Of a DNA stretch of 64,000 nucleotides, positions 6,166 to 29,395 are shown one piece after another. Source of the DNA: Lentisphaeria bacterium. Lineage in GTDB: Bacteria; Verrucomicrobiota; Lentisphaeria; Victivallales; UBA1829. Positions within the stretch are counted from its first letter, which is position 1. Every line of letters begins with the position of its first letter. Under the pieces are notes generated by a model that was given only the letters and a program-made list of their open reading frames with translations, did not search any database and had not been told where the DNA came from. The stretch covers positions 4,042-68,041 of the forward strand of contig JAFVTF010000067.1 in NCBI GenBank assembly GCA_017503375.1, given 5' to 3'. Both the position numbers and the translations under genes were made by a program.

Positions 6166-6316
6166 AACCCCAAAATGGCATTTTGATTTCTGCTGATACA
6201 AAAATCGGAATGCCGCAAAAAGGTTTGAAAAAGGATGATGGGGTTTGGGGAAGAAGGGAAAAACTTTCCTGAAAAGTTTTTCCCATCTTCCCCGATCACA
6301 AATCAACCTTTATTGG
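6166..6316 (+). repeat. Full copy 1 of the ~150-nt two-hairpin intergenic repeat (possible REP/BIME-like element or small RNA)
   Basis: About 90% identical to 27965-28111 in the same orientation. Hairpin 1 is 6177-6214 (13 bp including two G-U pairs that only work on the + strand). Hairpin 2 is 6247-6293 (21-bp stem). It lies between convergent genes. Confidence 0.8.
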
Positions 6317-9297: not shown

Positions 9298-9314
9298 AAA
9301 AAAATCCTTTCCGG

Positions 9315-10106
9315 TTAATTGGCTGATTTGACTTTTAGCGTTTCAGAAGGTGTTTTTCCTTCCTTATAGTAAATATAATTCCAATTGTTATATGCCTTTT
9401 CACTGCAGAGTTCCATGTGGATCTTTCCCGGTGAAGTTGTTGCTGTATGACCATCGGCATACATGATATTGGCTTTTTCATTATGTCTTGTATGAATCTG
9501 GGATTTATCGGATTCTGTTGTCAGTTCAATGTAGAAATATTGTCCTCCGTACCATGTTCCGACAGAACCCATATGCAGCGAATCAGCTCCGATCAGCTCA
9601 CTGGATGGGCTTTTTGATTTCCCAATACGGTAAAGACGATCATAATAAGCCCCGTTTTTGATTTCAAAAGCCCGTGAAGGATCAGTTGTAAGAAATACAT
9701 CAAGGGGGAAGATTCCGTACGTTGATTTCATCCGGCTTGTAAGCATGGGATTGGCAACAGCCTGCGGCTGAATTGTCGGACATGACAGAACCTTTGTATC
9801 TGTAAGATATCCTCCCTGATAAGCCTTGAAAAGCCACCCCGGATTGCTTGAAGCATCTGTCGCGTTGTAAACCCGGTATGCATACAGACCGTTGTATTCA
9901 TCGGAATACATTCCGACTCCCAGCATGACTTGTTTCTGATTATTGAGACATGACGAGGTTTGAGCCGCTTTTCTTGCATTGTTCAGTGCGGGCAACAGCA
10001 TTCCCGCCAGAATCGCAATGATGGCGATCACAACCAGAAGTTCGATCAGGGTGAATGGAACAATGACTGAATGGCATTTCCGGCATGAAAAACTTTTGTT
10101 AATCAT
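9315..10106 (-). CDS. Prepilin-type N-terminal domain protein of the H-X9-DG / DUF1559 family
   Basis: [33 protein letters not shown]-terminal helix. C-terminal [12 protein letters not shown] (H-X9-DG). AAGGAG RBS. Position -1 is Pro, not Gly. Confidence 0.85.
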
Positions 10107-10123
10107 CTTTTTTCTCCTTGAAT

Positions 10124-11935
10124 TTATATTATAGTTGGATTTTCCGGTAAATCAAATGAAAAATCTTCATTCCACAATTTTATATTGTTCTTTTTACAGC
10201 TGACAAGCAGTTCATTTACAGCCCGGATCAATGCTCCGGAGGCTGTCGTGAACCATGGAAGTTTTTTCAGTTCATACACTTCAAAACATTCATAAAAACA
10301 CCCCGTAGAATTTTCTGCGGCATCTTTCAGATATTTCAGAGCCTTCCGGAAATCCCCTCTGCGGATTTCTGCCGTTGCAATCACTCCGGCATACCAGGAT
10401 GAAATGTTTTTTCCGCCGGAATATTGTCCTGCAAACTCTGCAATATTCGCTTCTGTTTCTTCCAGAGCTTTCTGCTGAAGCGGATCTTTCGGGCAGACTG
10501 TCTGATAGGGAAAAATTCCATGATACATTGCAATTGAATTCTGTTTGCATCCGGGATAGGGAACATATCGTTCATTTTCAGCTGGAAGTGCATGGGTCAG
10601 CTCTTCAGAAAGTTTCTTCCATTTTTGCCGGAGTTCATGATCACAATCAAGATATTCCGCTATTTCCGCCGCAGCCCGGAAAACTGCGATCCCGCCGCAA
10701 GTTGTTGAGTACCCCCTTTCAATGAATTCCCCAAAACGTTCCATATCGGTACATTTCCCGATGTATGCTCCGGTAACGGAATCGTAATAAACAGCACTGC
10801 GCCGGTAATATTCTGCGCACCCATGAATCAGCGGATATAACACTTCCGAAAGCAGTTGTCTGTCCTGAAGAAATTTCCAGCATTCCCATGCACTGACTGC
10901 AACATTCGCCATGTGAACATATCGGTCCATCCAGAAGCCCGGCGGGGAACCTTCCGAACCGTCTTCCCGTGTTTCCCACGGATAACGTGCCGCAAGATTT
11001 TCTTTCGGACATATATGAGTATAGCATGTTCTTTGAATCGCATTTTCCAATACGGAAAAACGGAAACGGTCGATTTTTACCGCTTCTTTGAAATGACCGC
11101 TTGTCAGAAATGCTCCGTGTACATAAAATTCATCATAGGCGAAAAATCTGCCTTCCCAGTGTGATGGAAATAAGCCGGTCGGAACAGACCAGGGAGTTGA
11201 GGAAATTTTCAAATGGTATTGTGCCGTCCGGTACATTTTCATAAGAGCTTCATCGGGAATAGAAATCCAGCTTTCATTCCAGTATTTTTCCCATTCAGAA
11301 CAATGCGTTTTATACAGAGTATCAAAGTTTTCTCCTTTTGCTTCATCATCAAAACAGAGCAAAATATCAACGTTTGAATTTTTTGTTGTAATTGCCAATT
11401 CATGATCGGAAGAACAGAATTCTGCATCCGGAGCAATCATTTTTATAAAGCCGGAATGATTCCCGGAATTATATTCCAGCCGATCTGTTCCCTGTTGGAC
11501 AATCTGAATGGAACGTTCTTTCGGAAGATTGTAGCTGAATTTGTATCCCGGAACATCTCCCTCTGAGATGATGTTTTTCCGGATCGCAATGATTTCCCGT
11601 TCTGCATGACAGAAAATTTTTGTATGGATTTCAATCCCAGAGCTGTATTTGACGTTACATTCACAATATGCGTGATCAAGATCGATTGATTGGGAAAATT
11701 CCAGAACATCTCCGCTTTTTTCCGGGGATTGCACAAAATTCCCGAACCGGATCAGATTCATACTCTGATCATTATAACGTTTCCCGGAACGGACGATGAC
11801 CGGCTGCATCCCGCAATATTTCTGCTGCTTCATTTCTCCTTCATAATCGACCATGAAGGATAGTTTCCCGTTTCCCATCGCCAGGGGAACATAATGCCGT
11901 TTCCTTTGACTTTTATCACTGTATGATATTTTCAT
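10124..11935 (-). CDS. GH65-like (alpha/alpha)6 glycoside hydrolase/phosphorylase, no signal peptide
   Basis: [19 protein letters not shown] and [16 protein letters not shown] resemble the GH65 catalytic-domain motifs (FWD.E.F and PW.S...G.E). The start is moved to ATG 11935, which has a GGAG 6 nt upstream. The ORF-track start at 11947 lacks an RBS. Confidence 0.5.
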
Positions 11936-12056
11936 GGTGTACTCCATATTTATTCCGCTGTTAATAATTTATATTGAAAATAACTTGAAATCAAGAAGTT
12001 ATTGTGCTATTTTATACATGAACTGGTCATAATCAATACATAAAACAGGAATAATA

Positions 12057-12890
12057 ATGAGAGAAAAAGAAGATTATAAAGTAAATTTTTTGCGGTATCA
12101 GGATATGAGTGAACTGCCGATTTACCCTTTTTGTGCTGAAATTTCATTGCGTTATATTCCGCGAAAAGTCAACAGAAATCAATATCCGTTTTTATTGATT
12201 TGCGGAATTCAGGAAGGAAGCGTGCGTTTCGTTTTCGATGACCGGAAAATAACGCTGAACGCAAATGATGTGCTGCTGATTCCACCTTATACTCCATATT
12301 ATTTTGAATCATATTCGACAGGCGGACATTACAAAAAACTTGCCTTGGAATTACAGGGAAAACTGCTGAATGAATATCTTGATTGTTTGAAGATAAAACA
12401 GGTTTGCTGCCATAAAAAAGAATTATGGGAAGAATTTATTTCCGCATTTGAAAAAATCAATGAATTCAATGCAGCAGGAAATAAAGGGGAAATCCCGGAG
12501 ATATCTGCTGTTATTATCAGACTGCTGCACCATTTCTCTCTTCGGAATCAAACTGAAAACGATAATGGAGATTCTCTTTTGCTGATGGCTTGCAGATGGA
12601 TCGATCAGAACCTGGATAAACCGATAGATCTCCGTTCATTGGAACAACATCTGAACGTCAGCCGTTCAACTCTGGGACGGATTTTCCGGAAAGGAAAAAC
12701 AGTCAGTCCGAAAGAATATTGGATCCGCCGCAGATTGGAAAAATCAGAATACCTTTTGAATCATTCGGAATATTCCATCAAAGAAATCTCTTTCCAGCTG
12801 GGATATTCCTCACAATTCCATTTTTCCAATGAATTCAGACGGTTCTATGGGCTTTCCCCGCTGGCGTACCGGAAACTCGGACAAAACTGA
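12057..12890 (+). CDS. AraC-family transcriptional regulator (cupin-like sensor plus HTH)
   Basis: C-terminal SIKEISFQLGYSSQFHFSNEFRRFYGLSPLAYRK AraC HTH signature. Divergent from the GH65-like operon. Confidence 0.85.
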   Translation: MREKEDYKVNFLRYQDMSELPIYPFCAEISLRYIPRKVNRNQYPFLLICGIQEGSVRFVFDDRKITLNANDVLLIPPYTPYYFESYSTGGHYKKLALELQGKLLNEYLDCLKIKQVCCHKKELWEEFISAFEKINEFNAAGNKGEIPEISAVIIRLLHHFSLRNQTENDNGDSLLLMACRWIDQNLDKPIDLRSLEQHLNVSRSTLGRIFRKGKTVSPKEYWIRRRLEKSEYLLNHSEYSIKEISFQLGYSSQFHFSNEFRRFYGLSPLAYRKLGQN

Positions 12891-12911: not shown

Positions 12912-14756
12912 TCAGAGCTTTTCAATCGCAATATGAACAGTTAAACCATCTTTTCCTTCAGCGGCAAAGGTGTCATAATGTCCATTCCGGTTCCGGGCAG
13001 GGCGTTTCAGATCGCTGATCGTTCCACCTGTGACTGTATAACGGCAGACATATCCGCCAAATTCAATTTCCAGAACCTTTTCTTTTTGCGTGACTTTTGT
13101 ATTTTCTTCCCCGTTGAACCGGAAGACCGGGAGCAGACAACGTACTTTATTTTTTCCGGAAATCTTGATTTGAAGTCCGTTTTTATCCAGCACATAACTG
13201 CTTGCAACAGTTTGACCGCCGGGGAATTTACATTCCACTTCCGCTTTAGCTGTTTCTCCTGATGCAGAATGGCTTTTCACGGTATGGATAACTTCCTGTT
13301 CCTCTGCATCAATCCATTTTCCGTCAGCAAATATTCCCGGAACAATAGAAAGCATTGCCGGATTTTCTATGTCGACAGTGTAGCTTGATTTTGCAGGGCA
13401 GGGGGTGCTGAGACAAAGTTCAGATGGCGCACCTTTTTTGAGAAGGCGTCCCAAACCGCTGCAATCATAATGATAGTTTGCGTTATAATCATATTGAGCA
13501 GTATATTCCCCTGCATGTAAAAACAGCTGATGGAATTTATCGGAGGTTTTCCAGCTTCTTCCCATGTTATCATTGATTTCTCCGGCTGGGATTGAGTCAT
13601 CGCAAATCCGGTATGCAACATAAAGAAAAGAGGCTGCCGTAATCATGTACTTATCGAAATAAGCATAGTCTTCGCAACCGTACTTTGTATCCAGCGGAAA
13701 ACGGTTTTTGATATGAAGGATCGGAGTTTTTTTCAACCAGCCGGAGATCTTTTCCACGGCGCGGATTGCTCTGGCACGGAATTCTCCGGCAGTTTTCATA
13801 TCGCCTTTTGCGGCAAAGCGTCTCGCATAATATTCCATCATAATGGCTAAATGGGATTCATTATGCAGGAATTGATTGCTCCGTCCGCCGAAGGGCATTT
13901 CACCCGTAACGGATTGCAGGTCAAGTGTCAGCAATGCACTGGAATCCAATGCATCCTGCCAGACTTGCTTATATTTTCCCTGATATCCTTCATGAAGAAG
14001 GATCGCGAAAAGTCCGCGGGTGACAAAATCATAAACTGCAGGTTCCCCCGGATCGCGGTACATCTTGTTTTCATCCAGATGCCGCAGCTGAGAATATGCC
14101 TGCAAATCAATAAAATCCGCATAAGAATCAGCCAATCCCATTTTCTGCCGCATAAATTCGCTGACCATTGTGAATGCCGCCCAGTTGTAAACGATATGTT
14201 CTGTGTCTCTTGCATAAACATTATAACATGTATAGGGATTGATCGTTTTCAAAAGATTTTTCCATTCCTGCATCTTTTCAGCGGGAATCACTTTGCTGTT
14301 TTCCAATTCTTCCAGACAGAAAATGATTTCTTTCACGGAAAAATCATTTGCAGCTTTGACTTTCGGGATCTGCTGACAGCAGAAGTCCATCATCTGAATG
14401 AAAATATCTTTCAGATCCTGTCGTTTTCCATGAGCCATGAGGATTCCGATATTGGCAGTCAATCGGGGAAAACCATGTTCAGTCAACCCTTCTTTTTTGA
14501 CCTGATTGAAATAACGGTTGATGTGTTCCATGCTGTATGCAGAAAGCGTGGTTTCCATCAGATCAAGATAGTATGTCTTTTTCATGATCTTTTCCTTTGT
14601 CTTGATTTTTGCTGATTGTTTTATCTGATCGGAATCTTTGATTGTCTGTGTTTGCAGACCGCATCCGGTAAAGGAAAACAATACAGTGATTCCTGTAAAT
14701 ACCGGAAGGATGAACGCCGTTGATTGGATGAACATTTTCTTTTTGTCCATTTCCAT
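12912..14756 (-). CDS. Hypothetical lipoprotein-like protein, function unknown (possibly a helical-toroid glycan enzyme)
   Basis: N-terminal hydrophobic segment ending in FTGC (lipobox-like). It has its own promoter (14783-14811). ATG 14750 has better AGGAG spacing than 14756. No family recognised. Confidence 0.5.
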   Translation of the reverse strand: MEMDKKKMFIQSTAFILPVFTGITVLFSFTGCGLQTQTIKDSDQIKQSAKIKTKEKIMKKTYYLDLMETTLSAYSMEHINRYFNQVKKEGLTEHGFPRLTANIGILMAHGKRQDLKDIFIQMMDFCCQQIPKVKAANDFSVKEIIFCLEELENSKVIPAEKMQEWKNLLKTINPYTCYNVYARDTEHIVYNWAAFTMVSEFMRQKMGLADSYADFIDLQAYSQLRHLDENKMYRDPGEPAVYDFVTRGLFAILLHEGYQGKYKQVWQDALDSSALLTLDLQSVTGEMPFGGRSNQFLHNESHLAIMMEYYARRFAAKGDMKTAGEFRARAIRAVEKISGWLKKTPILHIKNRFPLDTKYGCEDYAYFDKYMITAASFLYVAYRICDDSIPAGEINDNMGRSWKTSDKFHQLFLHAGEYTAQYDYNANYHYDCSGLGRLLKKGAPSELCLSTPCPAKSSYTVDIENPAMLSIVPGIFADGKWIDAEEQEVIHTVKSHSASGETAKAEVECKFPGGQTVASSYVLDKNGLQIKISGKNKVRCLLPVFRFNGEENTKVTQKEKVLEIEFGGYVCRYTVTGGTISDLKRPARNRNGHYDTFAAEGKDGLTVHIAIEKL

Positions 14757-14782
14757 TTACTCCTGTCTTTTTACTGAAAAGT

Positions 14783-14811
14783 AATATACCCCCTTGAAAA
14801 ATAAATGTCAA
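14783..14811 (-). promoter_or_regulatory. Sigma70-type promoter for the 12912-14756 gene
   Basis: Minus strand reads TTGACA-17 nt-TATATT, directly after the upstream terminator. Confidence 0.55.
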
Positions 14812-14814
14812 GAA

Positions 14815-14851
14815 TAAAAAAGGGATATCTCAGATTTTTTCTCAGATATCC
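14815..14851 (-). terminator. Rho-independent terminator ending the DUF4838 operon (locus 2)
   Basis: Minus strand: ggatatctgaga-aaaaa-tctgagatatcc stem (one mismatch) followed by cTTTTTT. Confidence 0.6.
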
Positions 14852-14908
14852 TATGCTTTTTGAGCTGCAGTTCCGGATCACGGAAAACTGCAGAAGTTTG
14901 AGCGGTAT

Positions 14909-17782
14909 TTACAGGAATTTCAGTGTAACATCAGAAATTGCCGCCGCCTCTGTTCCGCGCATTTTGAAGAAGATCATCAGGAATTTATTCCCTTTCAGAG
15001 CATCCCCCTTTACACGGAATTTGACCGGTGCAAAACCTTTGTTGGAAACCGGACGTGCCCAGAGAACATTCTGCCCCGCAACCCAGTTATTCTTCTTCCA
15101 TTCGTAGATGATTACACCGATTTTACCGGATTTACTTTCCGCCGGACGCGCCGCATTCAAGGTCACTTCCATGACGTTTCCGGGTTTTTTGTTCCAGTTG
15201 AAGAGATAATGTCCGATGGTATATGCGTTCGGATTCCGGTTGACCATTGCTGTTTTTCCGAACAGTTTTTCATGGGTCGATTTTTCACGGGGAACGATCT
15301 TCGCAGAAGAAATTTTCTTTTCCCGTGTTTGTGATTTCTGCGCGGCAGCATCGCCAATCCGGATCAGACGGATATCTGCAATATACAGAGGTTCATTGAC
15401 TTTGAACCGGGATGGACGGATAATGATATTCGCTCCGGTATGCCGGGGAAGAACTGTCGCAACCTGTGTGAAAGTCTGCCATTCATTTGCCGGAATGCGG
15501 ATCTGCCGCAGATCTTCCCATGCGTTGTTGACTCCGTTGGTGCAGACCCAGAGGGAAAGATCCATGATCGCCTGCTGTGATTTTGACAGAACCTTGAGCG
15601 ATACCGCCCAGATTCCGGGATCAAGTTTCTCCGTGATCGTGAATGAAACGATATGACTCAACATGATATCATCCGGATTCGGTACTCCGTTGGGATGCGC
15701 CGGAAGGAGCTTGAGAGTCTTTTCGCCCTTGTAAAGCACTTCACTGGTAATTTCATAAGGAACTGAAGTTTTGATCTTCATTACACTTACCGGTTTTTCC
15801 AGTTTCGGGTTGGAGAAATAATTTTTGGCTTTATCTCCCTGAGTAACAAGAGAAATCATTTCTTTGACCGCCTTCGGCATATCCGGCAGAGCGGAAAGAG
15901 CTTTCAATCCCTCCTGAACTTCTTTGTGTTCCATAAAACGCAGAGATTTGAGAAGTCCGGCAGAAAGTAGTACTGAGGCATCCGGCTCATATAATTTCCG
16001 GGTGATATAATACTGTTTTGCTTTTTCATTAGAAAAATCCGCATTGGTGAAATAAGCAGCGGCACGTTTATGTTGAGCAATCAGACGCGGAAACTCCTTT
16101 TTCAGGAAATGAAAGTATGCCAGTGTATCTTTAACATTTTTGAATTCTCCGTTATCTGCTGCCCGGTATGCCATTCCTTGGAACGTTGCAATACAATCCA
16201 GATTTTCCATTTGACGGACAAGCAGGGCAGCACGGGCTTTTTCTCCGGGTGTTTTTGCCAATGTTTCCACTTTGAGCGCAAGGTCAAGCAGTTCTTTGGT
16301 GAAGCCCGGTTTCAGCGCAAACATGTGGTTTTCATTCGGATACATGTAAATATAGTTCCGTGCGCGGAAGATGGGTGTCTTTTTCATTTCTTCGGAAAGC
16401 CAGTAATTTTCGCACTTCTGATAGAGTTCTTTCAGGTACGGAGCGGCTGCTTTTCCGGCATAGCGGTTATACCACTCTTCCAGAAGTTTTTCCGGATCTG
16501 CATTGATATCTTTCAGAAGATTTGCAACAAGATAGGTCTTCGGACCGTCAAGAGCATCTGCCATACGGGAGTTTTCTCCGAAATAGGCTCTGCCGCCGTT
16601 GGCATAAAGATATTTCAGCAACGCAGCATGATTCTTGAAGTTCACGCGGGGGACCAGAAAGTTTCTGCCCCAGCAGTAATCCCAGATCCCGGTTTCTTTG
16701 ACCATTTTCCCCCACTCATTGATCACTCCCCAGTGACGTTCCTTTACTTTCGGATCCAATGCTCCCAGAACAGAATCCAGAGTCATCATGGGAACCACAT
16801 TTTTGTGAACCGGGAAATCCGGAGTCATAATGGTTCCGGTATAAGCGAGAATACCGATCCGGAGATCAGGATATTCTTTACAAACTGCTTCTGCAACACG
16901 GTTTACAAATGTGTAATAACTGTTCGCATGATTCTGTCTGTCATTGACAAATATTCCCTTGCGAAGCCCTTTATTCATGTTCTTGCAGCTTTCACATTCA
17001 CAGAATCCGCTATTGTCGTTGACGCCCAATGTGATGGATTGCGCCGGTCGTTTTTTCAAGATCTCAAGCGTATTTTTTACAGCTTCTTTTGCGGTCTCCG
17101 GATTGGAATAACAGGGTTGCCAGTTATTATAAATATTTGCAGGCGGTTTCACCAGTTTTTTTCCGCGGATGACCGGCATAATTGCAGCGGGCCAGCCTTT
17201 CCGGTATTTATGCGGCGGAAAAGAATAGACAGGAATCCCATGCGTGTATTGGAATTTTCCATTATCATAAAAACCAAGTTCCACAAGGTGATTCGGGAGC
17301 AGCCAGGTTGAACGCCGCAGAGAAAAACCTTCTTTGGATTTCATCGGTTCTGTCGGAACCTGAACATTTTTCATCGGTTCATACTGGAACATGCAATTTT
17401 CGATTCCGAGAAAACGGGTGTCTGCTCCCTTTTCCAGAACAGCATTCAACGCCTGAAATATGGAGGTGTCCGTTGCGGTGATCTTCATCACTTTTTCTGA
17501 CGGAAATTCGATTTCCCAATTGAAATGAGTTCCCAGTTTCGGATTCTTTTCCAGCACGACCTGAATGGTGTACGGAAGATTTTTATTTGTCTTCGGTAAT
17601 TCCGTTCCTGTGACTTTTTTCAGATAAGAGTTAAAAAGATCAATATGTTCAAGACTTTTTTCATCCGTATCTTTTGCCAGTTGAATTTGAGCGGTCGGTT
17701 TTGCATTTTTGACCAGATGGAATTCTGCAGCGGTCAATCCGCTGACAGCCAGCAATCCCATCAATAAAATTTTATGTTTCAT
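14909..17782 (-). CDS. Secreted DUF4838-type putative glycoside hydrolase (paralog of 6358-9297)
   Basis: Signal peptide. AEFHLVKNAKPTAQIQLAKDTDEKSLEHIDLFNSYLKKVTGTELPK opening. AGGAGG RBS. Confidence 0.6.
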   Translation of the reverse strand: MKHKILLMGLLAVSGLTAAEFHLVKNAKPTAQIQLAKDTDEKSLEHIDLFNSYLKKVTGTELPKTNKNLPYTIQVVLEKNPKLGTHFNWEIEFPSEKVMKITATDTSIFQALNAVLEKGADTRFLGIENCMFQYEPMKNVQVPTEPMKSKEGFSLRRSTWLLPNHLVELGFYDNGKFQYTHGIPVYSFPPHKYRKGWPAAIMPVIRGKKLVKPPANIYNNWQPCYSNPETAKEAVKNTLEILKKRPAQSITLGVNDNSGFCECESCKNMNKGLRKGIFVNDRQNHANSYYTFVNRVAEAVCKEYPDLRIGILAYTGTIMTPDFPVHKNVVPMMTLDSVLGALDPKVKERHWGVINEWGKMVKETGIWDYCWGRNFLVPRVNFKNHAALLKYLYANGGRAYFGENSRMADALDGPKTYLVANLLKDINADPEKLLEEWYNRYAGKAAAPYLKELYQKCENYWLSEEMKKTPIFRARNYIYMYPNENHMFALKPGFTKELLDLALKVETLAKTPGEKARAALLVRQMENLDCIATFQGMAYRAADNGEFKNVKDTLAYFHFLKKEFPRLIAQHKRAAAYFTNADFSNEKAKQYYITRKLYEPDASVLLSAGLLKSLRFMEHKEVQEGLKALSALPDMPKAVKEMISLVTQGDKAKNYFSNPKLEKPVSVMKIKTSVPYEITSEVLYKGEKTLKLLPAHPNGVPNPDDIMLSHIVSFTITEKLDPGIWAVSLKVLSKSQQAIMDLSLWVCTNGVNNAWEDLRQIRIPANEWQTFTQVATVLPRHTGANIIIRPSRFKVNEPLYIADIRLIRIGDAAAQKSQTREKKISSAKIVPREKSTHEKLFGKTAMVNRNPNAYTIGHYLFNWNKKPGNVMEVTLNAARPAESKSGKIGVIIYEWKKNNWVAGQNVLWARPVSNKGFAPVKFRVKGDALKGNKFLMIFFKMRGTEAAAISDVTLKFL

Positions 17783-17803
17783 CCTTGATTCCTCCTTTGT
17801 ATA

Positions 17804-18568
17804 TTATTCTGAATAAGTGAAAATCGGGGCAGATGGGGGTTGAAACGTTGTTGTATTGGCCCAATGGAATTCACCTCTGTGGCTGACTGTATTACCGGCA
17901 ACAGTCACGACATTATCAACACCCTGGTGGTGGGAATCCGGCTTATCTGTCAGACGTCTGGTATTATATTCTGCCAAACCATATATATTGGGATTTGATT
18001 GTGCTGCATAACTGTGAGTATCTGTCATAAAAATTATTTTTGAAGCTGGAACCTTTGATTTCCCAAGTTTATAAGGGGAATAGAATTTAGGAGGCGCCTG
18101 AAAATATCCCAGCAATTGGTTTACAGTGTAGCTTCTGTTGATAGTTTTTCCGCCTTCCTTCTGGAACTCATAATTATACGTTCCGTTGGCAACCATACCG
18201 ACACCCCGGGAACGGTCACCCGGACAATCGAAAATTTTGATGGAAACTCCTCCTCGTTTGATGTCGGTGTAACCGGCATAATAAATGGTATGGAAAGGCG
18301 AGAGTTTTGCATGGGTAGATTTATTGTATGCAATCGGGAAAAAATCATTCTGGTCACCGGCATAGGATGTAAAAACCTGATGCGCCTGTTTCAGATTGGA
18401 AATACAGGATGCACTGATTCCCTTTGCTCTGGATTTGTTCAGAGCCGGAAGCAGCATTCCCGCAAGAATTGCAATGATCGCAATAACCACGAGCAATTCG
18501 ATCAGCGTGAAGCACATGTGCTTCATGCCTGTACACAGGCATGAACCGTTGTTCTTTGACATTTTCAT
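17804..18568 (-). CDS. Prepilin-type N-terminal domain protein, H-X9-DG family variant (H-X9-AG)
   Basis: [30 protein letters not shown]-terminal [12 protein letters not shown]. The start is set at ATG 18568 (MKMSKNN...), preceded by AAAGGAAAC. The ORF-track start at 18613 is an upstream extension. Confidence 0.8.
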
Positions 18569-18720
18569 AATGTTTCCTTTCTTGTTTGTTATTATAAAAA
18601 CAGTATACGACACTGCATCAAAGATTCCGGAAATCTTTGAAATCGTTTCTCCGGTGATATTTTGAAAAACCCCGGTTATACTTTTTTTCTTTCAAAACGG
18701 AACGTTCAACGCTGTCAAAA

Positions 18721-20103
18721 TCACTCGTAAAAACGCAAAACGTTCTGAATGACTTTATCTTTCGTGATCGTTCCATTCAAATATTGCTCAAAATAAGGCA
18801 TCATGGCACAGCCCACCGGAGTCGGATAACGTTTCGGGTTCTGACGGCAGCGGGCAAAATATTTCAATAATTCCTTTTCAGGAGCAATATCAATAGTAGA
18901 AATGGATTCTGTTCTGACAGGAGCGGAATGCAGTTTTGTCCAAATTTCATCCTGAACAGATTTTGATAAGAGGTATTCGATAAACAAGAGTGCATGATGA
19001 ATGTTTTCAGAATGTTTCCCGATCCCGATCATACCGCTTCCACCCCAGTAATAACAGTCTTTCCGCGGGTTATGATAAATCGAAGAAATATATTGTTCTT
19101 CTGCAGTAATTCCGGTTGAGAATACAGAATTTGAATAGGAGGGAACACAGAACACATTCATTTCAGAATTTCCATTCAGAATTCCCCAGGAGATTTCATT
19201 TGTCATGAAGACATTTTTTCTCTCTTTGACCAGTTCGATCCGGTCAAAGACAATATTACAATGTTCCCGGATGATTTCCGGAGTAAAATCCACAGGAACA
19301 CCCAGATCGCGGCAGATATCATAATAGAGATTAAAAACCGGATATTTTTCCGGCAGAAACTGATTCACTTTCCGGAGCATTTCTTCCATCGGCATATTTC
19401 CGGCGGAAACACCATCGAATAAATGAAATTGTTTCAGCCATTGGACACGCTGAAATGTGAACATGTAAGTGTACGCATATTCATTTTGCAGCGGAAATGT
19501 TTCGTTGAGCATTCCGGAAAGAAACTCATCAGAATGGAAAAGTTTTTTCCAGGAAGGCTTGACTGGCATCAGCTGGTCCAGGTAACTTTTTGCCTGGAAA
19601 ATAGGTGTCGGCATCACTGCCAGATCAAAATTCCCGGACTGAAAATAATCCCAGTAAGAGGTATCGATACTTTCAAAATTATTACAGTATTGAGCTTTCA
19701 GATGCACCGTGGGAACCAGTTGATTGAATTTTTCGATTAATGAGTTCCAGAAATTGATCTGATCAGGCTTCGTCTCCGGAAGGAGGAGCGTCATGCTCTT
19801 ATTCATAGATCCGGTAACTTTATTATATGCACCACGTGGTGTATTGTTTTCTGCTTTTTTGTGATTGACATAGGTTTCTTTTCCGCGCCGGACCAATCTT
19901 CCGGATTCCAGAAACGGTTCCAGTGCTTTGCGGATCGTCCGCCTGTTCACTTTGATTTCCGCTGCAAGTTCACGTTCCGATGGAAAACGCATATTATGTT
20001 CAGATTTAAGGATCCAGTAATGAAACTGGTGTCTTAAGATCAGATAAAGCGGCTTGTCTGTCCGATTTATATAGAAAGGCTCTTTCAGTATTTCCGGAAT
20101 CAT
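18721..20103 (-). CDS. One-component regulator: GntR-type winged HTH fused to an ABC-type sugar/solute-binding-protein-like domain
   Basis: N-terminal FPSERELAAEIKVNRRTIRKALEPFLESGRLVRRGKETYV (GntR HTH). The C-terminal ~370 aa include WGGSGMIGIGKHSENIHHALLFIEYLLSKSVQDEIW, typical of family-1 extracellular solute-binding proteins. No signal peptide. Confidence 0.7.
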   Translation of the reverse strand: MIPEILKEPFYINRTDKPLYLILRHQFHYWILKSEHNMRFPSERELAAEIKVNRRTIRKALEPFLESGRLVRRGKETYVNHKKAENNTPRGAYNKVTGSMNKSMTLLLPETKPDQINFWNSLIEKFNQLVPTVHLKAQYCNNFESIDTSYWDYFQSGNFDLAVMPTPIFQAKSYLDQLMPVKPSWKKLFHSDEFLSGMLNETFPLQNEYAYTYMFTFQRVQWLKQFHLFDGVSAGNMPMEEMLRKVNQFLPEKYPVFNLYYDICRDLGVPVDFTPEIIREHCNIVFDRIELVKERKNVFMTNEISWGILNGNSEMNVFCVPSYSNSVFSTGITAEEQYISSIYHNPRKDCYYWGGSGMIGIGKHSENIHHALLFIEYLLSKSVQDEIWTKLHSAPVRTESISTIDIAPEKELLKYFARCRQNPKRYPTPVGCAMMPYFEQYLNGTITKDKVIQNVLRFYE

Positions 20104-20125
20104 AAAAAAATCCTTGAATTTATTG

Positions 20126-20148
20126 CACCATATACACCAACTGCACCA
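20126..20148 (-). promoter_or_regulatory. Three TGGTG pentamers at 9-bp period in the regulator leader (candidate operator)
   Basis: CACCA on the + strand at 20126, 20135 and 20144, located between the -10 box and ATG 20103. Confidence 0.4.
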
Positions 20149-20155
20149 TGAAGAT

Positions 20156-20183
20156 ATTATAGCATGAATATTTTATTTGTCAA
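20156..20183 (-). promoter_or_regulatory. Sigma70-type promoter of the locus-2 regulator
   Basis: Minus strand reads TTGACA-16 nt-TATAAT. Confidence 0.6.
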
Positions 20184-20203
20184 GAAGGGAAAATAAAAAA
20201 ATC

Positions 20204-20256
20204 TCAAAAAAAAATGGCTCAGTTCCCAAACAAGGGCCCTTGATTGGGAACTGAGC
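20204..20256 (-). terminator. Rho-independent terminator (ancestral yggU terminator, now behind the inserted gene)
   Basis: 13-bp arms gctcagttcccaa / ttgggaactgagc around a GGGCCC-centred loop (20217-20256), followed on the minus strand by a run of 9 T. Confidence 0.8.
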
Positions 20257-20257
20257 T

Positions 20258-20365
20258 ATAAAAAAACGGAAAATCAAAGATTTTTATTGAGTTCCTGCTG
20301 CAATATTGGGATTGTCCGAACATGGCTGATTCCGCAGACTTTCACGACTTTTTTCCGGGATGTCT
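20258..20365 (-). pseudogene. Displaced duplicate of the yggU 3' end (direct repeat copy A)
   Basis: About 90% identical to 22171-22277 (about 10 mismatches and 1 indel by hand alignment). It still reads in frame as TSRKKVVKVCGISHVRTIPILQQELNKNL*, but has no upstream coding body. Confidence 0.75.
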
Positions 20366-20468: not shown

Positions 20469-22052
20469 TTACTTCATAATCAGCTCATCTTCCCAGCCGA
20501 TGAGATTGCCTTTTTCTGAATCAAAGTTCACTCCGATGATGTAGATTTCCCGTTTGTCAAGCAAATACTTTTTATAGTATTCTTTTTCCTTGATCTGTTC
20601 CAATGCTGTCGGATCGTTGTCGAGTTTGAATTCAAAGATGAATATAGCATCTTTGGTCTGCACCACAGCATCTATTCTGCCGTCATTGGTTGCTGATTCT
20701 GCTTCAATATACAATCCAAGCAAGCGGAATATGGAGAAAAAGATTGTCTGGAAAGTCGATTCCTGCTTCTTGTGTGAAGTATAAGGAATTCCGGCAAAGA
20801 ATACTTCCATTGCTTTGCGGAGTTTTTTCAAATCCTTATTCAACAAAGCCGTTGCTATTTCAGCAGTAAACTGCACTGACACAGTTTGAGTCTTGCCGGC
20901 ATAACTGTTCAGAATGTAGGCACTGAATGCTCCTGCGACCTCACGGTTGGGAAAATCCAGAAAATACCAGGTCTGTCCGAAACGTTCTTCGGTTCCTTTT
21001 ATTGTAATGTAGCCTGTTTGCAGCAGTAACGTCAACGGGTCGATATTATCGATTTCAAAGGCATTGAATGCAACTTGCGGTACAGCGTCTTTCAATGCTG
21101 TCTCGAAATTAAAATCTTTTTGCTTGGTCAGCTCCATCAAAAATGATGGTGTTCCGGTGGAAAACCAATAATTATTGAATTCTCCACCATTTTCAAAGAA
21201 GTACGCCAGAGACACGGGATTATAAACCGTTTTTGCATTTTTGTGGAATCGATAACCGTTGTACCAATTTTTGATTTCAGTTTTGTATACTTCTATATCC
21301 GTCTCTCCGGCAAGAGCCGCAATGCGGTCGTCGAAGTTTGCTTCCAACTCGTCCTGGGTATAACCAAACATCGTTGCATAACGGGCATCCATAGTGATAT
21401 CCGTCAGATTATTCAAATCAGAGAATAATGAAACATGACAAAACTTACTGACTCCGGTAATAAAAACAAAACGCAACATGCCGTTTTTTTCTTTTATCAC
21501 AGAGTAAAATGTCCTTAATGCTTCAAGGAAACGAGAACGTTTTTCTTGAGTTATATTGTTGAGAATAGGTTTGTCATACTCATCCAGCAGTATGACAACA
21601 TCACCATCTCTGTCATGTAATTTCTTTATCAAAACATGGAACATTGTATCAGAAGATGATACCTGCAGTTCTATATTATTGATGCTTGCCTGTTCAAGAA
21701 GCATTTGCTGAAAACGCTCTTCCATTTTTTCGAGAGTACTGAAATCCCGCCCATTCATATCCAAATGAATCACAGGATGTTTTTTCCAGTCATAAGGTTT
21801 GTCATAGATGGCAAGCCCTTTGAAAAGTTCTTTTTTGCCTTCAAAGAGTGCCTTCAGTGTAGACACGGTGAGAGACTTGCCAAAACGGCGCGGACGTGAC
21901 AAAAAATACATTCCCCGGGCAGGTCTTATCAACTGCCAAATGTATTCTGTCTTATCTACATACAGGAAATTTCCCTGTATCAGGTCTTCAAAATTGTAAA
22001 CACTGCTGGTAATATCTTTCATGGTATCTACTCCCGTTGCTGTAATATACAC
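20469..22052 (-). CDS. Predicted AAA-ATPase (N-terminal) fused to a PD-(D/E)XK nuclease-like domain (C-terminal)
   Basis: FEDLIQGNFLYVDKTEYIWQL...YFLSRPRRFGKSLTVSTLKALF is the hallmark opening of the 'predicted AAA-ATPase' family. C-terminal GRIDAVVQTKDAIFIFEFKLDN...ALEQIKEKEYYKKY is PD-(D/E)XK-like. Confidence 0.85.
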   Translation of the reverse strand: MYITATGVDTMKDITSSVYNFEDLIQGNFLYVDKTEYIWQLIRPARGMYFLSRPRRFGKSLTVSTLKALFEGKKELFKGLAIYDKPYDWKKHPVIHLDMNGRDFSTLEKMEERFQQMLLEQASINNIELQVSSSDTMFHVLIKKLHDRDGDVVILLDEYDKPILNNITQEKRSRFLEALRTFYSVIKEKNGMLRFVFITGVSKFCHVSLFSDLNNLTDITMDARYATMFGYTQDELEANFDDRIAALAGETDIEVYKTEIKNWYNGYRFHKNAKTVYNPVSLAYFFENGGEFNNYWFSTGTPSFLMELTKQKDFNFETALKDAVPQVAFNAFEIDNIDPLTLLLQTGYITIKGTEERFGQTWYFLDFPNREVAGAFSAYILNSYAGKTQTVSVQFTAEIATALLNKDLKKLRKAMEVFFAGIPYTSHKKQESTFQTIFFSIFRLLGLYIEAESATNDGRIDAVVQTKDAIFIFEFKLDNDPTALEQIKEKEYYKKYLLDKREIYIIGVNFDSEKGNLIGWEDELIMK

Positions 22053-22170: not shown

Positions 22171-22277
22171 ATAAAAAAACGGAAATCAAAGATTTTTATT
22201 GAGTTCCTGCTGCAATATTTGGATAGCCTGAGCATGGTTGATTCCGCAGACTTCCACGACTTTGTCCCGTGATGTCT
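22171..22277 (-). repeat. Direct repeat copy B (functional yggU 3' end plus 15 nt downstream)
   Basis: See copy A. The pair brackets an 1805-bp segment that carries only the AAA-ATPase/PD-(D/E)XK gene. Confidence 0.75.
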
Positions 22278-25423: not shown

Positions 25424-26218
25424 TTAACATTTAAGATGCTGTTCTTTGTATTTATTCGGAGATATACCATAGAATTTTTTGAAACGGTTGGAAAAATAAA
25501 AAACCGAACTGTAATTTAATTCAGCTGCAATTTCACTGATTGTCTTATTTTCTTTCAGAAGCAGCTCTTTTGCCTGGGCCATTTTCATCTGTTCTTTGTA
25601 TTTTCCGGGCGGTATACCGAAACTTTCTTTGAATTTAAAGAAAAAAGAAGATCTGGAAACGCCGCATCCTTTTGCAATTTCTTCAACATTTTTATCAAAC
25701 GGGAGATAAAAACTTTTCAATGTTACATCATCAGGTTCTGAACTCTTTTCCGAACAGGAAAGCATATTTCCATAAAGCAGGATTGTATGAACCAGACAAT
25801 ATGCGAGTTCATACCAGCCGGGTCGACGTATTGCACAAATCCTGCGCAGTTCGGAAAACAGATATTTCAACCGTTGGAAATCCTCCGGTTCAATCGCTGT
25901 TTTGAATACAAACGGAGTTAGCTTTGTCCATTTGACCGGTGCTGTGATATATGTTCCGAAATTGAAATGACACCATTCCGTTGACCATCGGGAAGACAAC
26001 GATGTAAAATATCTGTCAGGCCCGGGTTTGATCAGAACCATCTCACCTTTCTGCAGTTTTATATTCTGATCATCAATAGTCAGAACCACTTCTCCGCTTT
26101 CCAACAGAAGAATATTCCAATTTTCGCCATATCCATAGTGTGGTTTCCCGGAACGGAAAGAACTCTTTTGACAAAAAATCTCCCGCCCCGTAACGCTGCT
26201 GTAATGATTCTGTAGCAT
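25424..26218 (-). CDS. AraC-family transcriptional regulator
   Basis: C-terminal ISEIAAELNYSSVFYFSNRFKKFYGISPNKYK HTH. The start is moved to ATG 26218 (MLQNHY...). The ORF-track extension to 26395 runs through the divergent promoter and into the neighbouring gene. Confidence 0.8.
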   Translation of the reverse strand: MLQNHYSSVTGREIFCQKSSFRSGKPHYGYGENWNILLLESGEVVLTIDDQNIKLQKGEMVLIKPGPDRYFTSLSSRWSTEWCHFNFGTYITAPVKWTKLTPFVFKTAIEPEDFQRLKYLFSELRRICAIRRPGWYELAYCLVHTILLYGNMLSCSEKSSEPDDVTLKSFYLPFDKNVEEIAKGCGVSRSSFFFKFKESFGIPPGKYKEQMKMAQAKELLLKENKTISEIAAELNYSSVFYFSNRFKKFYGISPNKYKEQHLKC

Positions 26219-26234
26219 TTTTATTCTCCGTTTT

Positions 26235-26275
26235 TTTTGGACGATGTTATATATATTTTGGACTATATTATATAT
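26235..26275 (+). promoter_or_regulatory. Two 20-nt direct repeats at 21-bp spacing (candidate AraC-type half-sites)
   Basis: ttttggacgatgttatatat (26235-26254) and ttttggactatattatatat (26256-26275) match at 18/20 positions, just upstream of the -35 box. Confidence 0.5.
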
Positions 26276-26293
26276 TGTTTTGCAAAAAAAATA

Positions 26294-26322
26294 TTGATAT
26301 TTTTCCGGCAATGTATTATAAT
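26294..26322 (+). promoter_or_regulatory. Sigma70-type promoter of the ADP-ribosylglycohydrolase-family gene
   Basis: TTGATA-17 nt-TATAAT, about 45 nt upstream of ATG 26368, with an AGGAG RBS. Confidence 0.6.
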
Positions 26323-26367
26323 ATATCAGAGAAACGAATAAAAAACAAGTAGAAACAGGAGAAAAAA

Positions 26368-29381: not shown

Positions 29382-29395
29382 ATTTTATTGTACCT

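What the first reader, a model, noticed from the sequence alone, without database searches (positions are those of the whole stretch)
12912..20183. Locus 2: GntR-SBP sensor, H-X9-AG prepilin-like and a secreted DUF4838 enzyme, followed by a separately promoted lipoprotein-like gene
This is the third instance of the module, with a consensus promoter at 20156-20183 and a terminator at 14815-14851.

The pilin-like member carries a variant C-terminal motif (H-X9-AG instead of H-X9-DG). It also has Cys at position -1.

A TTGACA-17-TATATT promoter immediately after the terminator drives an unassigned 614-aa protein. That protein may be an additional glycan-active component.
Basis: partly seen in the sequence, partly recalled or inferred. 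Interest (0 to 1): 0.65.

Follow-up and report, generated by a model that had tools for sequence, protein, structure and literature searches.

The report
Pilin-linked glycan-enzyme cassette beside lyase-like gene
A gut Lentisphaeria genome carries a self-contained three-gene cassette (sugar-sensing regulator, pilin-like protein, exported glycosidase) inserted next to an older, separately transcribed gene whose product is predicted to fold like a polysaccharide lyase.

Summary
On the minus strand there is a perfect sigma-70-type promoter (20183-20156). It is followed by a GntR regulator with a MalE-like sugar-binding domain (18721-20103), a pilin-like protein (17804-18568) and a signal-peptide DUF4838 glycosidase (14909-17782; the GH163/GH185 catalytic domain). 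Then come a terminator (14823-14851 plus a T-run), a second promoter (14811-14783) and a 614-aa lipoprotein-like gene (12912-14756).

The H-X9-AG motif is real. Close orthologues carry Ala or Gly at that position. Cys at -1 is also real, and none of 17 related pilin-like genes has Gly there.

The regulator, pilin-like, large-enzyme order recurs four times in the window and in distant Lentisphaeria.

Two results are new. Relatives have FtsH, a small gene and the 614-aa orthologue uninterrupted, so the three-gene cassette is an insertion and the 614-aa gene belongs to the conserved backbone. The 614-aa protein also belongs to a large family with no Pfam match. Its confident AlphaFold model is an alpha/alpha toroid plus beta-sandwich, closest to PL35, PL12, PL33, PL15 and PL17 lyases.

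What the pilin-like partner does is inferred, not shown.

The parts
20214..20259 (-). Hairpin with 23-nt arms followed by a T9 run. It lies just upstream of the cassette promoter and probably insulates it as a terminator.
   Evidence: The inverted repeat is 91% complementary. The sequence is shown.
20156..20183 (-). Cassette promoter, TTGACA-16-TGcTATAAT.
   Evidence: 12 of 12 consensus matches with an extended -10.
18721..20103 (-). Cytoplasmic one-component regulator of 460 aa. It has a GntR winged HTH at the N-terminus and a MalE-like (type II) sugar-binding domain, and no signal peptide.
   Evidence: The profile search against the PDB is. hhalign to the module-D regulator gives 99.1% probability over 352 columns.
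17804..18568 (-). Pilin-like protein of 254 aa. The leader ends in Cys at -1, followed by FTLIELLVV with Glu at +5. It has the invariant pair Cys55 and Cys115 and the C-terminal motif H214-X9-AG.
   Evidence: The AlphaFold model has pLDDT 87 with a helix spanning residues 22-72 and a mixed alpha/beta head.
14909..17782 (-). Exported glycoside hydrolase candidate of 957 aa. It has a Sec-type signal peptide and a DUF4838 domain at residues 180-453, which is the catalytic domain of GH163 and GH185.
   Evidence: PF16126 at E 2e-34. The N-terminus is MKHKILLMGLLAVSGLTAAEF. Family knowledge comes from PMC10570127.
14815..14893 (-). Two hairpins after the DUF4838 stop codon. The second (14823-14851) is followed by CUUUUUUAUU and looks like an intrinsic terminator.
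   Evidence: z = -5.0.
14783..14811 (-). Promoter of the 614-aa gene, TTGACA-17-TATATT.
   Evidence: It is identical in L094, and the -10 is kept in L095.
12912..14756 (-). Lipoprotein-like protein of 614 aa from an unnamed family. Residues 1-32 are a signal sequence with the lipobox-like FTGC, 33-57 are a linker, about 60-385 form the alpha/alpha toroid and 400-614 form the beta-sandwich. This is a backbone gene, not part of the cassette.
14689..14918. A perfect 16-nt inverted repeat (14689-14704 and 14903-14918). It encloses the hairpins, the promoter, the ribosome-binding site and the first 17 codons of the 614-aa gene. It is unexplained.
20261..20365 (.). Second copy of a 105-nt direct repeat; the first copy is at 22173-22277. 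It is the duplicated 3' end of the PF02594-like gene. The two copies flank the AAA-ATPase_like/PDDEXK_9 gene (20469-22052) and mark the upstream edge of the cassette.
   Evidence: 88% identity between copies.
12057..12890 (+). AraC-family regulator. It converges on the 614-aa gene and diverges from module A (6358-11947). It is a neighbour, and its target is not resolved.

Best explanation
Locus 2 is two things of different age placed side by side.

(1) Positions about 14950-20262 are a self-contained glycan-utilisation cassette that was inserted into a conserved housekeeping backbone. It brings its own upstream hairpin, a strong promoter and three genes.
- The regulator stays in the cytoplasm. 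It probably binds an imported oligosaccharide through its MalE-like domain and thereby controls the cassette promoter.
- The pilin-like protein is exported. It is held in the membrane, or built into a type II secretion or type IV pilus-like fibre, by its invariant N-terminal helix.
- Its variable, probably disulfide-bonded head is specific to the co-translated, Sec-exported DUF4838 glycosidase. The head either helps that enzyme out of the periplasm or holds enzyme and glycan at the surface.
- The enzyme most likely removes N-acetylhexosamine-containing units from host-type glycans by the substrate-assisted mechanism of GH20, GH163 and GH185.

(2) The 614-aa gene is an older backbone gene with its own promoter. 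It encodes an exported lipoprotein of an unnamed family with the toroid plus beta-sandwich fold of uronate-polysaccharide lyases. It is probably a lyase-like enzyme for acidic glycans and works independently of the cassette.

Shown: gene content, signals, domain assignments, recurrence of the gene order, the insertion, and the predicted fold.
Inferred: ligand sensing, the role of the pilin-like protein, substrates, and lyase chemistry.
For: Composition and signals.

Recurrence of the design:
- Four modules lie in the window.
- The orthologous pilin plus DUF4838 pair follows a GntR regulator with a different sensor domain in L083.
- Regulator homologues at 40-60% identity are each followed by a DUF1559 pilin-like gene and an 805-892-aa protein, set between housekeeping genes.
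- In 427 kb of Lentisphaeria DNA, 11 of 17 pilin-like genes are followed within 150 nt, on the same strand, by an ORF of at least 350 aa.

Pilin-like family: the N-terminal 24 residues are identical in all five window paralogues, while the heads are 26-30% identical. Cys55 and Cys115 are invariant in 46 sequences. In four of five cases the gene directly downstream has a signal peptide.

Insertion:
- L087-L090 have FtsH, the PF02594-like gene and the 614-aa orthologue contiguous, with a gap of 18-150 nt. The same backbone genes are 80-97% identical in the window.
- A 105-nt duplication marks the upstream edge.
- Two independent contigs break at window position 14949/14950.

614-aa protein:
- It has 1816 homologues and 782 representatives at 50% identity, none with a Pfam hit.
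- The model has pLDDT 91.9.
- Foldseek best matches are 8khw (PL35, E 8e-12, TM 0.51-0.53), then PL12, PL33, PL15, PL17, PL40 and PL8.
- Family members are fused to DUF4962 plus Hepar_II_III_C, Beta_helix, DUF4861, CBM96 and aldose epimerase.
- Neighbours include Hepar_II_III_C, GH88-like, short-chain dehydrogenase, 2-hydroxyacid dehydrogenase and xylose-isomerase-like genes.
- N191 (72/73), Y233 (69/73), Y242 (72/73), R292 (73/73) and H409 (69/73) are conserved. The spacing of N191, Y242 and H409 (51 and 167 residues) resembles the Asn/Tyr/His triad of PL35 (N187/Y241/H397). Y233-x8-Y242 has the same 9-residue spacing as the PL8 pair H233/Y242, whose Asn is N183.
Against: - No transcript, binding or activity data exist.
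- The pilin-like protein lacks Gly at -1, which canonical prepilin peptidases need. It may never be cleaved or assembled.
- Its head has no significant PDB match (best E 0.19).
- No secretion or pilus machinery genes lie in the window.
- One enzyme that follows a pilin-like gene (GH28 in module D) has no signal peptide.
- A 152-nt gap between the regulator and pilin-like genes holds a possible weak promoter (TTGATG-19-TATAAT, read by eye). The three genes therefore need not form one transcript.
- For the 614-aa protein, there is no profile-level similarity to any lyase. Identity to the structural matches is about 10%. No superposition could be made, so the catalytic-residue match is an argument from spacing only.
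- In the close relatives L087-L090 its orthologue sits among stress and housekeeping genes rather than CAZyme genes.
Confidence: 0.55

Rival explanations
1. The 614-aa gene is a working fourth member of the module. It would be an accessory lyase that opens acidic glycans for the DUF4838 enzyme, and its separate promoter would only tune its dosage.
For: - It lies directly downstream on the same strand.
- The orthologous pilin plus DUF4838 module in L083 has a Hepar_II_III_C gene next to it.
- In L005 a 64%-identical family member sits right after a pilin-like gene, in an operon with a divergent GntR-SBP regulator.
Against: - In L087-L090 the orthologue sits in a backbone position with no cassette.
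- L094 keeps the gene and its promoter without the DUF4838 gene body.
- A strong terminator lies between the cassette and the gene.
- Among the 18 Lentisphaeria/Victivallales loci that carry a family member, a DUF4838 match was seen in only two (L003, L006).
Confidence: 0.15
2. The pilin-like protein does not help secretion. It is a glycan-binding or adhesive subunit, a functional stand-in for SusD or for the cellulose-binding pilins of Ruminococcus, Fibrobacter and Caldicellulosiruptor. It would capture the substrate for the enzyme.
For: - The same adjacency data apply.
- The heads are hypervariable on an invariant stem.
- Pfam names the family SBP_bac_10.
- Pilins linked to glycan adhesion appear in the literature search (10.1101/614800, PMC3672088).
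Against: - No carbohydrate-binding fold was recognised in the model.
- No binding data exist.
- This reading is not exclusive of the secretion or display reading.
Confidence: 0.3
3. The 614-aa protein is not a lyase. It would instead be a glycoside hydrolase, a glycan-modifying enzyme or a non-catalytic binding protein on the same scaffold.
For: - Lower Foldseek matches include GH127, GH88, GH105 and GH154.
- Four of 73 members give weak DUF2264 hits.
- E200, E300 and D243 are invariant or nearly so.
- The conserved Clostridia operon is rich in oxidoreductases, which is not the classical uronate pathway.
Against: - All full-length, best-scoring structural matches are lyases.
- Some members are fused to heparinase II/III-like domains.
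- The Asn, Tyr, His and Arg pattern is conserved.
Confidence: 0.35
4. The adjacency of pilin-like and enzyme genes has no functional meaning. The family is simply very large and scattered through the genome.
For: The family is huge: 7947 hits among the 8000 candidates scored. There are five copies in 64 kb.
Against: - All five window copies and 11 of 17 copies overall sit 9-70 nt upstream of a large gene on the same strand.
- The orthologous pair is kept at 61% identity even though the regulator has been exchanged.
Confidence: 0.05

Closest known systems
Bacteroidota polysaccharide utilisation loci (Sus-like systems)
   Same: A compact, separately regulated unit that pairs a sugar sensor with exported glycan-degrading enzymes and a non-catalytic envelope protein. 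It is gained and lost as a block.
   Different: There is no SusC/SusD pair. The sensor is a cytoplasmic GntR-SBP one-component regulator, not a hybrid two-component or ECF/anti-sigma system. The non-catalytic partner is pilin-like.
Type IV pilins and type II secretion pseudopilins (GspG/H, PilA, ComGC)
   Same: A short basic leader, F at +1, Glu at +5, a roughly 50-residue N-terminal helix and a probably disulfide-bonded head.
   Different: The -1 residue is Cys, and none of 17 relatives has Gly there. All equivalog models score far below their cut-offs. The head has no significant structural match. The gene lies beside an enzyme gene, not in a machinery operon.
DUF1559 / H-X9-DG-CTERM paralogous family of Planctomycetota, Lentisphaerota and Verrucomicrobiota (PF07596, TIGR04294); also the Verru_Chthon cassette protein D model (TIGR02596)
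   Same: A prepilin-type N-terminus plus a C-terminal H-x4-N-x4-(D)G-x-V motif. Homologues carry precomputed PF07596 hits.
   Different: This protein itself gets no PF07596 or TIGR04294 hit. Asp is replaced by Ala, or by Ala or Gly across its orthologue clade. TIGR02596 scores 23 bits against a cut-off of 70. No function for the family was found in the four papers that mention it.
AraR-type GntR regulators (GntR HTH plus a periplasmic-binding-protein-fold sugar sensor)
   Same: A GntR winged HTH fused to a binding-protein-fold effector domain that controls sugar-utilisation genes. The profile hits the AraR DNA-binding domain.
   Different: The effector domain is type II and MalE-like (SBP_bac_8), not the LacI/GalR-type fold. 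The subfamily is small: 17 hits in the word-indexed search, named only as Lentisphaerae where named at all.
GH163 (BT1035) and GH185 (Sp_0475) DUF4838 glycosidases
   Same: A PF16126 catalytic domain at E 2e-34. Like BT1035, the protein is exported.
   Different: At 957 aa, about 500 residues are unassigned. It was not placed in either CAZy family here, and the catalytic residues (D309 and Y436 of Sp_0475) were not mapped.
Toroid plus beta-sandwich polysaccharide lyases: PL35 GAGase VII (8KHW), PL12 heparinase III, PL33 BT4410, PL15 Atu3025, PL17 Alg17c, PL8
   Same: The same two-domain architecture by structure prediction. Asn, Tyr and His or Arg are conserved with similar spacing.
   Different: About 10% identity and no HMM or profile similarity. 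The family has no Pfam model. Most members, in Clostridia, are cytoplasmic and lie in oxidoreductase-rich operons.

Membership tests
Type IV pilin / pseudopilin superfamily (class III signal peptide) | Hydrophobic N-terminal segment with Phe at +1 and Glu at +5 after a short basic leader | tested here: met
   The sequence reads [19 protein letters not shown]|[26 protein letters not shown]07963 scores 21.5 bits against a cut-off of 21.2, and TIGR02532 scores 21.8 against 16.3.
Type IV pilin / pseudopilin superfamily (class III signal peptide) | Gly at -1 of the prepilin peptidase site | tested here: not met
   The -1 residue is Cys. In 17 Lentisphaeria paralogues it is C, P, S, A, K, R, F, Y or L, never G.
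Type IV pilin / pseudopilin superfamily (class III signal peptide) | Lollipop fold: a long alpha-1 helix packed on a beta-sheet head | tested here: inconclusive
   The AlphaFold model has a helix at residues 22-72 plus a mixed head, with pLDDT 87. The best PDB matches are the pilins FimA and PAK, but only at E 0.19-1.1.
Type IV pilin / pseudopilin superfamily (class III signal peptide) | Cleavage, N-methylation and assembly by a pilus or secretion machinery | not testable with these tools
   No machinery genes lie in the window.
DUF1559 / H-X9-DG-CTERM (PF07596, TIGR04294) | Match to the family models | tested here: not met
   This protein has no PF07596 or TIGR04294 hit at E <= 0.01. Paralogues A and D1 and many homologues do hit PF07596.
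DUF1559 / H-X9-DG-CTERM (PF07596, TIGR04294) | C-terminal His-X9-Asp-Gly motif | tested here: not met
   The motif is H214[10 protein letters not shown]224-G225. His, Asn at +5, Gly and Val are kept, but Asp is replaced. Orthologues at 48% identity or more have Ala or Gly, and relatives at 38-48% identity have Asp.
GntR-family one-component regulators | N-terminal winged helix-turn-helix of GntR type | tested here: met
   PF00392 scores 26.8 bits against a cut-off of 27. The profile search hits YvoA at E 4e-12, DasR at 4e-10 and AraR at 7e-10.
GntR-family one-component regulators | C-terminal effector-binding domain, here a sugar SBP fold | tested here: met
   The profile hits trehalose/maltose-binding protein at E 1e-7 and MalE3 at 3e-6. 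hhalign to the module-D regulator, which passes the SBP_bac_8 cut-off, gives 99.1% probability.
GntR-family one-component regulators | Operator binding and ligand response | not testable with these tools
   The only lead is a tandem ATGGTGCA pair at 20124-20149. The motif count in the window is not above chance.
GH163 / GH185 (DUF4838 glycosidases) | PF16126 catalytic domain | tested here: met
   E 2.1e-34 and 119.6 bits, covering profile positions 62-323 of 325.
GH163 / GH185 (DUF4838 glycosidases) | Catalytic residues equivalent to D309 and Y436 of Sp_0475, and assignment to one CAZy family | not tested
No PDB relative was found by sequence.
Toroid plus beta-sandwich polysaccharide lyases (PL8/12/15/17/21/33/35/39) | Two-domain fold: alpha/alpha toroid followed by an antiparallel beta-sandwich | tested here: met
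   The model has pLDDT 91.9 and pTM 0.89. Foldseek gives E 8e-12 to 6e-8 against PL35, PL12, PL33, PL15 and PL17 structures.
Toroid plus beta-sandwich polysaccharide lyases (PL8/12/15/17/21/33/35/39) | Sequence membership of an existing PL family or Pfam model | tested here: not met
   There are no Pfam or NCBIfam hits. The profile search against the PDB returned only a chance hit. hhalign to a fused heparinase-like domain gave a probability of 0.1%.
Toroid plus beta-sandwich polysaccharide lyases (PL8/12/15/17/21/33/35/39) | Catalytic Tyr and His with an Asn (or Arg) neutraliser in the cleft | tested here: inconclusive
   N191, Y233, Y242, R292 and H409 are conserved in 69-73 of 73 sequences, with spacing like PL35 and PL8. 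No coordinates were available for a superposition.
Bacterial lipoproteins | Basic n-region, hydrophobic core and a lipobox ending in Cys | tested here: inconclusive
   The sequence MEMDKKKMFIQSTAFILPVFTGITVLFSFTGC has Phe at -3, which is atypical. Orthologues carry canonical LSAC, LTAC, LSGC or LGGC, and others have plain signal peptides or none.
Bacteroidota PUL | Adjacent SusC-like and SusD-like genes | tested here: not met
   No such genes appeared among the window ORFs scanned.

The most novel reading that the evidence does not exclude
The DUF1559 pilin-like proteins would be enzyme-specific adaptors. Each would use an identical N-terminal stem to enter one shared secretion or pilus fibre, and a private head to export or display the glycosidase encoded just downstream. 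That would give Lentisphaerota and related PVC bacteria a modular, cassette-based alternative to Sus-like systems. The non-Gly -1 site would point to unconventional processing.

Alongside this, the 614-aa family would be a new polysaccharide lyase family. The perfect 16-nt inverted repeat around its promoter and signal-peptide codons would be a DNA inversion switch that turns its exported form on and off.
Probability: 0.15. Interest if true: 0.8.

Novelty: new variant of a known kind. Interest (0 to 1): 0.5.

Why it matters
Lentisphaerota and Victivallales are common but poorly understood glycan degraders of animal guts. Their genomes hold very many pilin-like genes for which I found no described function.

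Three results make testable claims possible:
- These genes travel in regulator, pilin-like, enzyme cassettes.
- The cassettes are inserted into housekeeping backbones and appear to be present in some close strains and absent in others.
- The pilin-enzyme pair stays together when the regulator is exchanged.

Together these give a concrete hypothesis for a non-Sus route of glycan capture or enzyme export.

Separately, a family of about 1800 proteins has no Pfam model but a confident lyase-like fold, and it is conserved across Clostridia and Lentisphaeria of ruminant guts. That makes it a candidate new carbohydrate-active enzyme family.

Tried and rejected
- Sequence-level links of the 614-aa family to known families failed. 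Pfam, NCBIfam, a profile search against the PDB, and hhalign to the heparinase-like half of fusion protein P0153 found nothing, apart from weak DUF2264 hits in 4 of 73 members.
- The metagenome scan with the DUF4838 protein gave only two short loci. Synteny came instead from exact-protein look-ups.
- MAFFT placed the C-terminal motif of the pilin-like protein eight residues off, aligning EYN...DSHH with the canonical motif. I rejected that alignment in favour of H-x4-N-x4-AG-x-V, which keeps His, Asn, Gly and Val and is supported by orthologues.
- ATGGTGCA as an operator word: 3 matches against 2.1 expected in the window. Only its tandem position after the -10 is suggestive.
- I considered that the AraC gene at 12057-12890 regulates the 614-aa gene, because AraC genes neighbour the family in Clostridia and one fusion exists. 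Its divergent arrangement with module A fits equally well, so this stays unresolved.
- Literature searches for DUF1559, DUF2264, Victivallis or Victivallales with pilins, and Kiritimatiellota with pseudopilins found no description of the module.

Full report
**What is there**

On the minus strand, window 12912-20183 holds the following, in order of transcription.
- A hairpin with 23-nt arms and a T-run (20214-20259).
- A perfect TTGACA-16-TATAAT promoter with TG before the -10 (20183-20156).
- A 460-aa regulator gene (18721-20103).
- After a 152-nt gap, a pilin-like gene. The ATG at 18568 gives 254 aa, as in its orthologues.
- After 21 nt containing AAGGAGG, a 957-aa gene (14909-17782).
- Two hairpins, the second followed by CUUUUUUAUU. 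The fold energy is -31.5 kcal/mol, z = -5.0, with 0 of 200 shuffles as good.
- A TTGACA-17-TATATT promoter (14811-14783).
- A 614-aa gene (12912-14756).

The terminator scanner missed the hairpin only because of its own criteria.

**The three cassette genes**

*Regulator.* As a single sequence it hits GntR just under the Pfam cut-off and SBP_bac_8 weakly. A profile of it and 13 homologues is clear. The N-terminus matches the YvoA, DasR and AraR DNA-binding domains (E 4e-12 to 7e-10). The rest matches trehalose/maltose-binding protein and MalE3 (E 1e-7 and 3e-6). It aligns over 352 columns at 99.1% probability with the module-D regulator, which passes the SBP_bac_8 cut-off. It has no signal peptide. 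It is therefore a cytoplasmic one-component regulator with a MalE-like sensor. The subfamily is small: 17 hits, and the only one a source names is from a Lentisphaerae genome.

*Pilin-like protein.* It has a prepilin-type N-terminus. Residues +1 to +24 are identical in all five window paralogues, while the heads are only 26-30% identical. Cys55 and Cys115 are invariant in 46 sequences. The H-X9-AG reading is right. MAFFT misplaced the motif, but H214[14 protein letters not shown] keeps the His, Asn (+5), Gly and Val of the canonical H-x4-N-x4-DG-x-V. Orthologues at 48% identity or more all have Ala or Gly where more distant relatives have Asp. Cys at -1 is real, and the position is free: in 17 Lentisphaeria paralogues it is never Gly. 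The AlphaFold model (pLDDT 87) has a 51-residue helix and a mixed head. It has no significant PDB match, and the best matches are pilins at E 0.19-1.1.

*Enzyme.* The 957-aa protein has a Sec-type signal peptide and a PF16126 domain (E 2e-34). This domain is the catalytic domain of GH163 (BT1035, which cleaves GlcNAc-beta-1,2-Man in complex N-glycans) and of GH185 (Sp_0475, a 6-sulfo-GlcNAcase). Both are distant relatives of GH20 that use substrate-assisted catalysis (PMC10570127).

**The module recurs**

The window holds four such units:
- A: 6358-11947, with a divergent AraC gene.
- B: this locus.
- C: 28158-33080.
- D: 52587-60409.

Elsewhere:
- The orthologous pilin-like gene (61% identity) is again followed by a 952-aa DUF4838 gene. 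It is preceded by a GntR regulator whose sensor is Peripla_BP_3, not SBP-like.
- Regulator homologues at 40-60% identity are each followed by a DUF1559 gene and an 805-892-aa protein. In one case the trio lies between gatB and ispF/IMPDH.
- In the window, four of the five genes directly downstream have signal peptides. GH28 in module D does not.

**The cassette is an insertion, and the 614-aa gene is not part of it**

Contigs carrying 69-71%-identical orthologues of the 614-aa protein show this order with no cassette: Aldedh, NIF3, ClpX, ClpP, trigger factor, FHA, FtsH, a 107-aa PF02594-like gene, the orthologue, desulfoferrodoxin, a flavodiiron protein, rubredoxin. The same backbone genes are 80-97% identical in the window, but they are interrupted twice.
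- Between trigger factor and FHA lies 25.4-33.1 kb, holding an AraC gene, an ADP-ribosylglycohydrolase and module C.
- Between the PF02594-like gene and the 614-aa gene lie an AAA-ATPase_like/PDDEXK_9 gene and then cassette B. The ATPase gene is flanked by a 105-nt direct repeat of the small gene's 3' end (22173-22277 and 20261-20365, 88% identity).

Close strains differ here.
- L096 is collinear with 19978-14795 at 97% identity.
- L097 ends at 14949.
- L094 carries the 614-aa gene at 96% nucleotide identity and keeps the promoter, both hairpins and the last 41 nt of the DUF4838 ORF. It then loses homology at 14950 and continues with 461 nt that have no counterpart in the window and hold only short ORFs (74 aa or less).

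**The 614-aa protein**

It belongs to a family with 1816 word-indexed hits and 782 representatives at 50% identity. The best 120 hits have no Pfam domain except in fusion partners.
- Most members, from Clostridia, are about 557 aa and start where the core starts.
- Lentisphaeria members often add a lipoprotein or plain signal peptide.
- The model is confident (pLDDT 91.9, pTM 0.89): residues 1-53 disordered, about 60-385 helical, 400-614 beta-sandwich.
- Foldseek places it with PL35 GAGase VII (E 8e-12, TM 0.51-0.53), heparinase III, BT4410 (PL33), Atu3025 (PL15), Alg17c (PL17), PL40 and PL8.
- Members are fused to DUF4962 plus Hepar_II_III_C, beta-helix, DUF4861, CBM96 and aldose epimerase.
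- In Clostridia the gene ends a conserved operon: AraC, an OYE-like flavoprotein, a short-chain dehydrogenase, an FAD_binding_2 protein, a xylose-isomerase-like barrel and a 2-hydroxyacid dehydrogenase. Heparinase-like and GH88-like genes are sometimes present.
- In L005 a 64%-identical member follows a pilin-like gene, flanked by the same barrel and dehydrogenase families.
- N191, Y233, Y242, R292 and H409 are nearly invariant. The spacing of N191, Y242 and H409 resembles the PL35 Asn/Tyr/His triad, and Y233-x8-Y242 has the same spacing as the PL8 His-x8-Tyr pair. I could not superpose structures, so this is inference only.

**How it most likely works**

The cassette is a small, self-regulated glycan-utilisation unit. 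The regulator senses an imported oligosaccharide. The exported glycosidase attacks a hexosamine-containing glycan. The pilin-like protein, through a shared stem and a private head, exports, anchors or presents that enzyme or its substrate. Only the composition, signals, recurrence and insertion are shown. The role of the pilin-like protein is the weakest step, and the missing Gly at -1 argues against canonical processing. The 614-aa gene is an independent backbone gene for a lyase-like exported enzyme.

**Comparison and novelty**

The parts belong to known kinds: a GntR regulator, a prepilin-like DUF1559 protein, a GH163/GH185-type domain, and a lyase-like fold. The combination, the GntR-MalE-like sensor, the Asp-less motif clade and the unnamed lyase-like family are variants that I could not find described. 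This is not a Bacteroidota-type PUL.

Noticed in passing
window 14689-14704 and 14903-14918: A perfect 16-nt inverted repeat lies 198 nt apart. It encloses the terminator hairpins, the promoter, the ribosome-binding site and the first 17 codons (signal peptide) of the 614-aa gene. Only two non-hairpin inverted repeats of this kind exist in the 64 kb, and about 0.01 is expected by chance. It could be an inversion switch. No recombinase gene was seen, and the flipped form could not be searched.
   Followed up: partly
window 20261-20365 and 22173-22277: A 105-nt direct repeat (88% identity) of the 3' end of the PF02594-like gene flanks a 1.9-kb segment. That segment holds an AAA-ATPase_like/PDDEXK_9 gene (20469-22052), which is absent from relatives. 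It looks like an insertion with target duplication.
   Followed up: partly
window 14949/14950; L094 1-461; L097 end: Two independent metagenome contigs break at the same window position, 41 nt before the DUF4838 stop codon. L094 continues with unrelated sequence holding only short ORFs. This suggests the cassette is present in some close strains and absent in others, with a 3' relic left behind.
   Followed up: partly
window 6200-6315 and 27998-28111; related copies in L009, L001, L015: Modules A and C end with the same roughly 115-nt non-coding element (95% identical), which contains a 21-23-bp hairpin. Cassette B lacks it. It may be a shared terminator or a mobile intergenic repeat.
   Followed up: partly
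window 9315-10106, 17804-18568, 31071-31793, 56108-56887, 58233-58928 and 12 genes in Lentisphaeria loci: None of 17 pilin-like genes has Gly at -1 before FTLIEL. The residue is C, P, S, A, K, R, F, Y or L. The next 24 residues are identical in all five window copies. This points to unusual processing, or none.
   Followed up: partly
window 25424-33080: A second block is absent from relatives and lies between trigger factor and FHA/FtsH. It holds an AraC regulator, an ADP-ribosylglycohydrolase and module C (GntR-Peripla_BP regulator, a pilin-like gene and two pectate-lyase-like genes).
   Followed up: partly
L020, L034, L058, L069, L073, L076 and other Clostridia loci: Cytoplasmic members of the 614-aa family end a conserved operon. 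Its genes are AraC, an OYE-like flavin oxidoreductase, a short-chain dehydrogenase, a 623-aa FAD_binding_2 protein, a xylose-isomerase-like barrel and a 2-hydroxyacid dehydrogenase. The dehydrogenase lies directly upstream in 24 loci. The pathway is unknown.
   Followed up: partly
window 14583-14585 (Met58 of the 614-aa protein) and homologues P0003, P0012, P0020, P0021: Homologues that carry a signal peptide still keep a Met-Lys-Lys exactly where the signal-less homologues start. This hints at a recent N-terminal extension or at two alternative start sites.
   Followed up: no
window 18591-18621: A possible weak internal promoter, TTGATG-19-TATAAT, lies in the 152-nt gap between the regulator and pilin-like genes. 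The scanner does not report it because the spacer is 19 nt.
   Followed up: no
L083 5680-7596: A heparinase II/III-like gene lies divergent to the orthologous GntR, pilin-like, DUF4838 module in a relative. In the window, a lyase-like gene of a different family lies beside the module instead.
   Followed up: no
window 42623-45315: Two adjacent paralogous genes (467 and 448 aa) have peptidase C39-like domains. They lie next to riboflavin-synthesis genes (ribD directly, ribH and ribBA nearby).
   Followed up: no
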